This document shows positions 51,101-54,100 of a stretch of DNA of 64,000 bases, in pieces. The stretch spans positions 659,836 to 723,835 of the forward strand of contig NW_004797486.1 of assembly GCF_000002075.1 (NCBI RefSeq). Direction: 5' to 3'. Each line of letters begins with the position of its first letter. Within the stretch, counting starts at the first letter, position 1. The notes under the pieces are model-generated. The model ran no database searches, had not been told where the DNA came from, and saw nothing but the letters and a program-made list of their open reading frames with translations. The DNA comes from Aplysia californica. Lineage: Eukaryota. Position numbers and translations under genes: made by a program.

Positions 51101-54100
51101 CCTGGTAGTTTTCAATGTCTTCTCGTGTTTTGGTTGCCATGGCTTTTTTCCTTATTTGCCCTTTTCTTCTATCAGTTTGTCCGCTTCTTCATTCCAAAAG
51201 GGTTTAGGAAGTTTACGAGCGCCCTTAGGGATACTTTGTTTGGCTGCTTTTAAAATGGCCTCAGTTAGGCACGTGTTTAATTTCGTGGCGTCCGTCATGT
51301 TAGGCATGTCATTTGCCGAAATCTCTGTTTCCATGAGGGCATTGAACAACGACCAGTCAGCCTTCTTGAAGGACCATTTGGCTTTGCTCCTACGGGTCGG
51401 GGCAGAGTGTCTACAGAGTTTGATTTTGATGGCTTTGTGGTCAGAGACCAGGGTGTCACTGGTTTGCCAAGAGACATAAGCTACCTGTGAAACATGACAG
51501 AAGGAAATATCAGGGACTGATTTGAGCATAACTTGAAAGAAGATAGGCAATAAAAGGAACTCTTTCTGTAGAATACATACAACTCAATTTTATTTGCAGT
51601 TAGCAAACACAGAGAGAAAAAAGTTTTGGTGAGGTTATATTAGCTTTCCACCAGGGCCCAAGCATTGTTGTGAACAATCACTGTAAATTAGACTTTTTGT
51701 GGTGAAGATAAGAAACTTCAGTGATCTACATCCTTGGTGCCTAATTAAAACTCACCGTGAGATCATTGACAGTTCCAATCTCCTCCCGGATGGTGAACAC
51801 ATCTAGGAGGGCCTGGGTCGGATGCTCACCCACGCCATCGCCAGCATTCACTATTGGCTTGCGGGAACTCTTCGCCGCTACCTGTGAGGTAATTACAATC
51901 ACATGGTATTACGTACAAAATTAGATAAAAGTAGAATACAACCGTCATGTCCCCCCCCCCCCATCACAGCTAATTGTTCCTCGTCCTGTCAGAAAAAGTG
52001 GCAACCCTGGTGTGACCTTTCGTGTTGTGTACTTGGTCAAGCACTTAGAAATGGTGGCTTTACTTTGGTCAAGCAGTTCGAAATGGTGGCTTACCTTTAT
52101 ATATACCCTGAAGACACTGACATTTAGGGCTTTTAGAATTAAAAATCAGGTACCGCAATGATCCAAGTTAACACACAGGAAAAGTTCAGGTGAGTAGAGC
52201 AAAGTTTCCATTTTGTCTCAATTCTGTGTTCTTTCCTCTTTCAAAATATGGGTTGTTGTTTTTTTGTTTGTTTGGGCGGCGGGGGGATATTAATAACCCG
52301 TCGGGTAAATGACAGAGCTGGATTATTGCGCTCAGCTGAAGAAGAGAAGGTGCTTGACCTTCCTTGATTCGACACATTTTGACTATATCTCTCCTTTGGA
52401 GCATATCAAGGAAGTCAAGCTCTGAAGAACGAACCTATCCATTGAGTAATGTATTTGGGCAATAAATACTTCCTCTACGTACCACCCGGGCACAACTGAA
52501 TTATGCATTCTGCTTTAAGATTGTCTAACAAGACACAAAAGGCCATAGAATAGTTCATGGTAGAAAGGTTAAAGGAGACCTAATTAGAGATAAAAAGACA
52601 ACATTCTAGGACTGTCCAAAAATTTCTACAACAAAAATATAACCATTTTTTAATGCTATGTTTGAAAAAACCATGAGAGTTCAAATCATTATCTGACAGA
52701 ATATCCTTCCTTCCACAAAGTCACAAACGCTTCCAAAAAAGTACTCCCAGTGTTCCATCGACATACAGGGCGTTCAGATTGACAACTCGTGTGTGCAAAT
52801 CCTCACCACTCCAGCAGAAGCAATAAGTGAGGTAGAATTGCATGCCTCACAGCTCTTCCTACAGAATTAAATGCCATGCTATGCACCTCTAAATGTCTTC
52901 TTCCTTTCCACAGTGAACTTAAGTATCAACATTAACAAAGATCTGGAGAGAATTCAGTGCTGCCATCCCAAACCCTGAAGAAAATCTCAGATGGATCCAT
53001 CNNNNNNNNNNNNNNNNNNNNNNNNNNNNNNNNNNNNNNNNNNNNNNNNNNNNNNNNNNNNNNNNNNNNNNNNNNNNNNNNNNNNNNNNNNNNNNNNNNN
53101 NNNNNNNNNNNNNNNNNNNNNNNNNNNNNNNNNNNNNNNNNNNNNNNNNNNNNNNNNNNNNNNNNNNNNNNNNNNNNNNNNNNNNNNNNNNNNNNNNNNN
53201 NNNNNGAAAAGAAAAGCACCTCTACACAAAAATGGCCAATCGTCTCTAGGAAAAGTAAGACAGACTGAAACAAAAGAAAAAAAGAAATGAAGGACCTACC
53301 AGTGGCACCTTCCAACCATCAGCTTGCAACAACCCTCACAAAAGCTGAAAAGCCGTATCTTGAGAACACATTTTACTAATCATTTTTTGGGAAGGTGTAG
53401 ATGGGATATATTAGGAAGGTAAATTTTTTAATATGACATTTCAATCTTTGTTTCTAAACATTCTGTCCGGATTTTAGCGGTGTCTTTCTAAACATTACTA
53501 AACATTTCCTAGAGACATTCACTGATGACGTATATTAGATAATGTTATTACCTGCACAGCCCCAGGAGTGGGATGTCTGATCACTACAATGTCTGCATAG
53601 CCAGCCATCATCGACACAGTGTCTGAGGAGAGTCGTAGTTGTTGTAAGAGTTTTATGGCACTCGCAATACAAAAGGGTCATATAAGTGCAGAAGATTAGA
53701 GGTGTTACAAGAGAGTAATATACAAAGGAAAGAGTGGGAAATAAGGATGAGAGATATTTGATAGGAAAGGAGCAAACCACACCAGAGCACCTGCCAACCA
53801 CCTATGTTTGAGGAGAGGAAAAAAAAAGCCAAAATAAGAAAATCTAAAGCATACTCTATGTGCTGACCATGTCAGCGAATGGTCTCCGACACACACCGAA
53901 CTCACACGCTGAAGTCATGTCACGTTATGCGAACGCGCAATCGAAACAGTTTTACTGATAGGCCCGACTAACTGCGCCTTCACACCTAACACTCAGAAGA
54001 GCGACAGTTGTTCTAGGCTGACGACAACGGCCGATCAACACAATGTACTAACAAATCCCTCATATGTATTCAGACGTACAAGGTACCCATTGTGGATGGG

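What the first reader, a model, noticed from the sequence alone, without database searches (positions are those of the whole stretch)
53620..53850. Retroposon TSD duplicated a CAD splice acceptor; the original copy lost its AG
Seen on the sense strand: a long pyrimidine tract (ttttcttattttggctttttttttcctctcctc) ends in AAaca at 53817-53805, followed by family A, then ctctcctcAG|ACA starting the exon. The 13-bp TSD therefore spans the acceptor and 3 exon bases, and its only mismatch is the G of the upstream AG. Inference: insertion at the splice site of an essential exon was rescued by killing the old AG. The exon now uses the TSD copy with only ~8 pyrimidines, relying on the element tail or a distant branch point; the intervening element sense strand is nearly AG-free.
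Basis: partly seen in the sequence, partly recalled or inferred. Interest (0 to 1): 0.75.

Follow-up and report, generated by a model that had tools for sequence, protein, structure and literature searches.

The report
Retroposon duplicated a CAD splice acceptor
In a sea-slug CAD gene a short jumping element sits exactly at a splice signal and carries a copy of that signal behind it, which a transcript joins to; the copy likely worked from the start, so the missing letter in the original copy is probably later decay rather than a rescue.

Summary
The anatomy is real. A ~172-bp repeat lies in sense orientation at the acceptor of a 71-nt CAD exon, between two 13-bp copies (53817-53805, 53632-53620) that differ only at the G of AG. 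A 7-kb transcript contig joins donor 55128 to 53622, the downstream copy. The element is not AG-free where it matters: a copy-specific TAG lies 6 nt past the lost AG and outscores the used site (6.0 vs 4.6 bits). Eight pyrimidines is normal here (16 of 21 other acceptors have no more), and a YTNAY lies at -23, so no distant branch point is needed. The G>A fits background decay (5 of 27 Gs in this copy; 4 of 8 other TSDs mismatched), and rescue of a null allele by a second hit has probability at most 6e-5 in a simulation. Most likely the downstream acceptor was self-sufficient. The same architecture is known from an NF1 AluY insertion (exon skipping). No outgroup empty site was available. Four look-ups found no earlier scan note of this on other DNA. 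Side finding: all 10 intronic copies are sense, and three more end within 100 nt of acceptors.

The parts
55128..55269 (-). Upstream CAD exon (KVLASMF...KGETLE + G), donor GT at 55127, phase 1
   Evidence: contig 2 of X20
53834..53838 (-). Predicted original branch-point motif CTTAT, A at -28 from the lost AG
   Evidence: motif match only
53810..53841 (-). Long pyrimidine tract, inferred to be the original, now orphaned, polypyrimidine tract
   Evidence: sequence; run of 19 pyrimidines
53805..53817 (-). 5' TSD copy; A at 53808 where the 3' copy has the G of AG
   Evidence: (D7)
53633..53804 (-). Family A retroposon-like element, sense to CAD, 13% diverged from the other copies at conserved columns
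53802..53804 (-). Copy-specific TAG (family has G at 53803), 6 nt past the lost AG; unused in the one contig seen
   Evidence: (table 3)
53791..53793 (-). CAG in the element head (family polymorphism), low acceptor score, mostly paired in predicted folds
53656..53689 (-). Predicted 3' hairpin of the element (approximate ends); buries the third AG (GAG, G at 53661)
53644..53648 (-). Predicted new branch-point motif CTTAC in the element tail, A at -23 from the used AG
   Evidence: same word in 6 of 10 copy tails; motif match only
53620..53632 (-). 3' TSD copy: 8 pyrimidines, AG at 53624-53623, first 3 exon bases; the working acceptor
53552..53622 (-). 71-nt CAD exon (D)[23 protein letters not shown]

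Best explanation
A short retroposon-like element lies between two 13-bp copies of the CAD acceptor, the transcript uses the downstream copy, and that copy was likely a working acceptor from the moment of insertion, the upstream G being lost later by probably neutral or weakly favoured mutation. Steps: (1, inferred) staggered nicks 10 nt inside the intron and 3 nt inside the exon duplicated 8 pyrimidines, AG and ACA; (2, shown) the duplicated site is as strong as ordinary acceptors in this gene region; (3, predicted) the element's tail supplies a branch point at -23 and its 3' hairpin hides the nearest AG; (4, inferred) exon definition favours the 71-nt exon over a 250-256-nt one, and any upstream use gives a premature stop that nonsense-mediated decay would remove; (5, inferred) once the allele was common, G>A at 53808 arose like the other G>A changes in this copy and trimmed any remaining leak.
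For: Junction 55128/53622 in an unbroken 7036-nt contig, depth 21.3. Used site 4.6 bits, with 6 of 21 other acceptors lower; 16 of 21 have pyrimidine runs of 8 or fewer; AG-exclusion zone 36 nt within the range 18-126. YTNAY at -23. A TAG scoring 6.0 bits behind the long tract is tolerated. G>A at 5 of 27 conserved Gs in this copy; 4 of 8 other TSDs carry mismatches, 5 of 87 positions. Second-hit rescue of a costly allele 1e-6 to 6e-5 (assumed mutation rate 1e-8). Longest of 15 coding exons measured here is 204 nt. NF1 AluY with an 11-bp TSD ending in the AG gave skipping, not element inclusion (PMC3219598), so the limiting factor there was the downstream site.
Against: With G restored the upstream site scores 13.8 bits against 4.6, a large handicap for the downstream site at birth; the only mismatch falls on an AG base (prior 0.11 at the TSD rate; about 0.2 at this copy's rate). 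The scoring matrix comes from only 21 homology-inferred acceptors. The branch point is a loose motif. The transcript comes from a run labelled as another organism (about 99% identical), not shown to carry the insertion. Contigs drop minor isoforms, and raw RNA runs X21 and X22 had no depth on most CAD exon bins, so leak was not measured. No empty site was seen.
Confidence: 0.5

Rival explanations
1. Born without the upstream AG: the true duplication is 9 bp, ending between A and G, followed by a 6-nt filler, or the G was miscopied while the 5' junction formed. Only insertions that happened to lack the AG survived; no later mutation was needed.
For: Both junction oddities (A at 53808, A at 53803) lie within 6 nt of the 5' junction. 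Short extra bases occur at other 5' junctions in the window, e.g. copies 55544 and 17333. Untemplated 5' nucleotides are a listed hallmark of TPRT (PMC5860796). It avoids the population-genetic problem.
Against: The filler would have to match ACA by chance (about 1 in 40, my estimate); two changes in 6 nt are not rare at 13% divergence; five of the other TSDs are 11 bp or longer.
Confidence: 0.2
2. One reading: the new allele spliced leakily (much upstream use or skipping), was mildly harmful, and G>A at 53808 was positively selected as the compensation the exon now depends on. The strict form (a null allele saved by a second hit) gets about 0.02 of this.
For: Restored upstream site 13.8 bits, above all 21 others; upstream use gives a frameshift and stop; the single mismatch hits the AG; CAD is essential (established knowledge: de novo pyrimidine synthesis).
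Against: Simulated chance of the second hit before loss is 1e-6 to 6e-5 even for s = 0.01; a new TAG behind the same tract has been tolerated; background G>A rate 5 of 27.
Confidence: 0.2
3. The old tract and branch point still work: the element folds out so that the upstream signals serve the downstream AG, or the TAG is a regulated alternative acceptor that sends part of the CAD mRNA to nonsense-mediated decay.
For: The tract is still long and clean; predicted helices pair the element head with its middle; the G of the TAG is less accessible than the used G in 6 of 9 fold settings.
Against: The region folds no better than shuffles (z = +1.56); three AGs lie between the old branch point and the used AG; the X20 contig is unbroken at the junction; T-rich tracts persist by slippage without function (inference).
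Confidence: 0.1

Closest known systems
NF1 intron 14 AluY insertion, c.1642-1_1642insAluY with 11-bp duplication (PMC3219598; read: section 8, passages of Tables 1-2)
   Same: Sense-oriented non-autonomous retroposon at an acceptor; TSD includes the AG; native tract left upstream of the element.
   Different: De novo and disease-causing; both AGs intact; exon skipped. Its TSD is A-rich and is preceded by poly(A), whereas here the TSD carries 8 pyrimidines and the tail a YTNAY; here the insertion is old and the exon is included.
Canine merle SINEC_Cf at PMEL intron 10/exon 11 (PMC7349775, section 6 and passages; PMC6091007, passages)
   Same: SINE at the intron-exon boundary with a 15-bp TSD at the acceptor; the original site can still be used, in competition with a cryptic AG in the element.
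   Different: Antisense, oligo(dT) acts as tract, in-frame exonization, segregating allele. I did not see the figures, so I cannot say whether its upstream TSD copy holds the AG.
Introners and other transposons that take a splice site from their TSD (lead from scan notes e1-7135268, e1-7133595, and recalled; no paper read)
   Same: A TSD copy serves as a 3' splice site.
   Different: They create new introns in exons. Here the intron is old (28 of 119 homologous ORFs read G right after the same motif, as a phase-1 intron read-through would) and only its last 185 nt are new.
Under-representation zones of intronic TEs in mammals (PMC3088655; abstract and passages)
   Same: Fixed TEs within 20 bp of acceptors are rare and show orientation bias; sense Alus are favoured near intron ends.
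   Different: Here copies look enriched, not depleted, near acceptors (n = 10, post hoc).
Mollusc SINEs: Aca_CORE_1/2, Aca-Nin-DC, MESC, Snail, LP-SINEs (PMC4758252, section 13 and passages); bipartite non-autonomous LINEs (PMC5786205, passages)
   Same: Short, high-copy, TSD-flanked, simple-repeat tail, about 10% diverged.
   Different: No tRNA head detected; I could not compare with their consensus sequences (figures and supplements not seen), so family A is unnamed here.

Membership tests
Non-LTR retroposon insertion (TPRT) | TSDs of variable length | tested here: met
   7-16 bp in 8 other copies, 13 bp here; 3 copies had no callable TSD
Non-LTR retroposon insertion (TPRT) | Simple-repeat or A-rich 3' tail of variable length; no terminal inverted or long terminal repeats | tested here: met
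   A-rich tails in 10 copies; no inverted repeat at the element ends
Non-LTR retroposon insertion (TPRT) | 3' stem-loop shared with a partner LINE | tested here: inconclusive
   3' hairpin with 2 pairs changed on both sides in 8 copies, within what relatedness alone can give; no partner LINE found
tRNA-derived SINE (CORE, Nin-DC, MESC, Snail) | tRNA-related head with A and B boxes | tested here: inconclusive
   ARAGORN 0 in the window; Rfam 0 matches at E <= 1 in 53500-55700; decayed heads are often missed, but copies share one 5' edge with no head before it (table 7)
tRNA-derived SINE (CORE, Nin-DC, MESC, Snail) | Conserved central domain | not testable with these tools
   No repeat library held; paper figures not seen
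Introner / intron-creating element | Element makes up a whole new intron at a position absent from relatives | tested here: not met
   Native donor 1.3 kb upstream; same intron position suggested by 28 of 119 homologous ORFs
Distant-branch-point exon | Long AG-exclusion zone (about 100 nt or more; recalled) with branch point at its 5' end | tested here: not met
   Zone is 36 nt; three AGs between the old tract and the used AG
Acceptor-duplicating retroposon insertion (NF1 AluY type) | TSD spans the acceptor AG | tested here: met
   under the 13-bp reading; under the 9-bp reading the G was never copied
Acceptor-duplicating retroposon insertion (NF1 AluY type) | Empty allele reads tract-AG-exon | not testable with these tools
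   No genome held; two metagenome scans empty; X20 too close and without that intron stretch

The most novel reading that the evidence does not exclude
Family A is a retroposon pre-adapted to land on 3' splice sites: in sense orientation it is AG-poor, folds its few AGs away and ends in a branch-point-like tail, so it can replace the branch point of a host acceptor, duplicate the rest by TSD, and survive in zones from which other elements are purged. The CAD site would be one of many captured acceptors in this genome (all 10 intronic copies sense; three others end 36, 50 and 96 nt before an acceptor, one duplicating a branch-like motif).
Probability: 0.15. Interest if true: 0.7.

Novelty: new variant of a known kind. 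Interest (0 to 1): 0.35.

Why it matters
Insertions at acceptors are mostly known as disease or coat-colour alleles. This one is old, present in at least two samples, and sits in an essential gene, so it shows which features let such an insertion survive. It offers a clean minigene test (one base, one tail motif) of whether compensation or luck at insertion matters. If the family-wide sense and acceptor-proximity pattern holds, it would be a route by which mobile DNA replaces branch points without creating introns.

Tried and rejected
Whole-genome work: no genome held, so family statistics rest on 12 copies in 64 kb. Empty site or further copies in metagenome contigs: 0 matches in both scans. 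No RNA holder was listed as such. Raw RNA runs X21 and X22: no depth in bins 53498-53569 and 55154-55297, so uninformative on minor acceptors. X20, labelled as another organism, proved about 99% identical in a 231-nt intron piece and had no listed piece over the insertion: not an outgroup. Whether sample X5 has A at 53808 could not be read: two of the four differences in its record 9 are among 82 rows not shown. In-frame exonization of the element: rejected, all three element AGs and the old site meet a stop. Recursive splicing at TAG/GT or CAG/GT: considered, not tested; the regenerated donors would lack the +5 G (from the sequence). Structural masking of the TAG: inconclusive. Intron creation: rejected. 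Rfam and tRNA scans empty. Paper searches for a fixed, tolerated acceptor-duplicating insertion returned only the NF1 and merle cases; the library lacks most subscription journals, so this is not proof of absence. Scan look-ups gave only two notes on protist introners.

Full report
Setting. The minus strand carries the 3' part of CAD: the exon at 55269-55128 matches human CAD ATCase at E 6e-12, the best named relative is Elysia marginata at 85%, and nine exons map by tblastn down to 39094. A neighbouring gene is SPTLC1; one of its exons is 100% identical to a protein labelled Aplysia californica, and 15 exons map. No genome was held, so all family statistics come from this window and one read lay.

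Observation. The 13-bp repeat is there: 53817-53805 and 53632-53620, one mismatch. The mismatch is A at 53808 against G at 53623, the last intron base. The same 13-mer with at most one mismatch occurs only once elsewhere on either strand of the window. Between the copies lies a 172-bp member of a family with 12 copies in the window (13 nhmmer rows, two of them one copy split by a tandem array). Copies share a 5' edge reading GTGGGTGG, an A-rich tail, and TSDs of 7-16 bp where callable, which is the anatomy of a non-LTR retroposon. No tRNA head or Rfam family was found, and I could not name the family from the papers read (figures and supplements not seen). In a second sample, X5 (uniform depth in all 30 bins, so DNA), record 8 bridges the 3' junction with 66 letters in the element at depth 53, and record 9 reaches 27 letters past the 5' junction at depth 57, slightly under the tool's 31-letter rule; unique sequence has depth 62. 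The insertion is therefore not an assembly artefact, though the A at 53808 could not be read off for X5.

Which acceptor is used. Contig 2 of run X20 is 7036 nt long, depth 21.3, and lies on 53549-53622 (record 1069-1142) and 55128-55271 (record 1143-1286): donor 55128 is joined directly to 53622. This gives G+AC = Asp, matching the D[ST] in 90 of 119 homologues. Caveats: X20 is labelled as another organism, about 99% identical in a 231-nt intron piece, and was not shown to carry the insertion (inferred from the element being 13% diverged); contigs drop rare isoforms; the two raw RNA runs laid (2 of 3 offered) had no depth on most CAD exon bins. Twenty-eight of the 119 homologous ORFs read G at this point, several followed by unrelated sequence, as read-through into a phase-1 intron would, so the intron predates the element.

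The element has only 3 AGs, but two are right behind the long tract: TAG (G at 53802) and CAG (G at 53791). The TAG is specific to this copy: 7 of 8 other copies have G at 53803, as do 34 of 35 and 38 of 41 family reads laid there. With a matrix from 21 acceptors in the window (22 sought, one not located; all inferred from homology), the used site scores 4.6 bits (others 1.6-13.1, six lower), the TAG 6.0, the CAG -0.4, the GAG -3.5, and the upstream copy with G restored 13.8. Sixteen of 21 acceptors have pyrimidine runs of 8 or fewer, and the AG-exclusion zone of 36 nt is ordinary. A YTNAY (CTTAC) lies at -23 in the element tail, and another (CTTAT) at -28 from the lost AG; the tail word is present in 6 of 10 copies. 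Such a loose motif is common by chance, so the branch point is predicted only. All upstream AGs lead to a stop 101-153 nt before the exon end, which would be expected to trigger NMD (established knowledge) and to hide leak.

Was the G lost by selection? For: the restored site would be the strongest in the window, and the one mismatch hits the AG. Against: 4 of 8 other TSDs have mismatches, 5 of 87 positions (boundaries set by hand, two calls weak, three copies left out for want of a TSD); this copy has G>A at 5 of 27 conserved Gs against 8 of 198 in the others, so a neutral loss has a prior near 0.1-0.2. A Wright-Fisher simulation (N 1e4 and 1e5, four cost settings, 20,000 runs each, assumed mutation rate 1e-8) gives 1e-6 to 6e-5 for a hit in the AG before a costly insertion allele is lost. 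A sequential rescue must therefore compete with routes that need no second hit: the allele was tolerable at birth, or was born without the G. The tolerated TAG shows that something other than AG absence steers splicing downstream; candidates are exon size (71 nt against 250-256; the longest of 15 exons measured is 204) and pairing. Folding evidence is weak: z = +1.56 against shuffles; the GAG is paired in all 9 settings, the CAG in 8 of 9, and the TAG is less accessible than the used AG in 6 of 9; the family's 3' hairpin has 2 doubly changed pairs among 8 copies.

Precedent. In NF1, a sense AluY inserted at the intron 14 acceptor with an 11-bp duplication ending in the AG; the exon was skipped, and the paper states that no inserted element was fully included (PMC3219598). 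That is the same architecture with both AGs intact, and the failure lay in the downstream site. The merle SINE at PMEL has a 15-bp TSD at the acceptor and competes between the original and a cryptic site (PMC7349775, PMC6091007). Five searches found no fixed, tolerated case, but the library lacks most subscription journals.

Mechanism, committed. Shown: duplication, element, junction used, ordinary strength of the used site, stops behind the other AGs. Inferred: staggered cleavage 10 nt into the intron and 3 nt into the exon; branch point from the tail; exon definition and NMD; later loss of G. I give 0.5 to 'self-sufficient downstream site, later neutral or weakly favoured G>A', 0.2 to 'born without the AG', 0.2 to 'selected compensation of a leaky allele', 0.1 to 'old tract still in use'.

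A wider pattern. All 10 copies inside CAD or SPTLC1 introns are in sense orientation (two-sided p 0.002), and, leaving out the focal copy, 2 of 9 end within 50 nt and 3 of 9 within 100 nt of an acceptor (p 0.026 and 0.012; thresholds chosen after looking; two copies lie upstream of the first mapped CAD exon, where exons may be unmapped). The TSD of copy 11229 repeats a CTGAT motif at -27 of an SPTLC1 acceptor. Antisense copies would carry 15-25 AGs and, in 6 of 10, a GTAAG donor word, which could explain the bias by selection. In mammals fixed TEs are depleted near acceptors (PMC3088655). Ten copies from two genes are too few, but this is the most novel reading left open (0.15).

Verdict. A real and neat case of a known kind of event, unusual in being old and tolerated in an essential gene. 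The rescue story is unproven and less likely than tolerance from the start. Interest 0.35.

Noticed in passing
window 11015-11245 (minus): Family A copy ending 36 nt before an SPTLC1 acceptor; its TSD duplicates a branch-point-like CTGAT at -27 and also has one A/G mismatch (A in the 5' copy).
   Followed up: partly
window 39194-39430 and 55270-55550 (minus): Two more family A copies end 50 and 96 nt before CAD acceptors; all 10 intronic copies are in sense orientation.
   Followed up: partly
window 43617-45283: A 37-bp internal segment of a family A copy is expanded into a 44-unit tandem array, giving spurious 600-aa open frames.
   Followed up: no
window 48400-51580 (minus): Broken LINE with reverse-transcriptase, RNase H-like and CCHC-like frames (named by eye) in a CAD intron; a short piece of it recurs near 52390-52450.
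   Followed up: no
window 17387-18111 (plus): Second LINE 3' remnant (RNase H-like and zinc-knuckle-like frames, by eye), antisense in an SPTLC1 intron.
   Followed up: no
window 53799, table 7: 447 and 574 poly(A) RNA reads continue 5' of the family A head into one common sequence (agreement 0.87-0.89): a longer parent element or one highly expressed host transcript. Family A reads are abundant in both orientations.
   Followed up: no
window 54146-54793: Other high-copy repeats in the same CAD intron (summed depth up to 7e4 in X5).
   Followed up: no
window 20110-20169: Family A copy with a tandemly duplicated 29-bp tail.
   Followed up: no
window 53633-53804: The focal copy is about twice as diverged as the others at conserved columns (20 of 151 vs 72 of 1201), with excess G>A and three A-rich tail changes near the acceptor.
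   Followed up: partly
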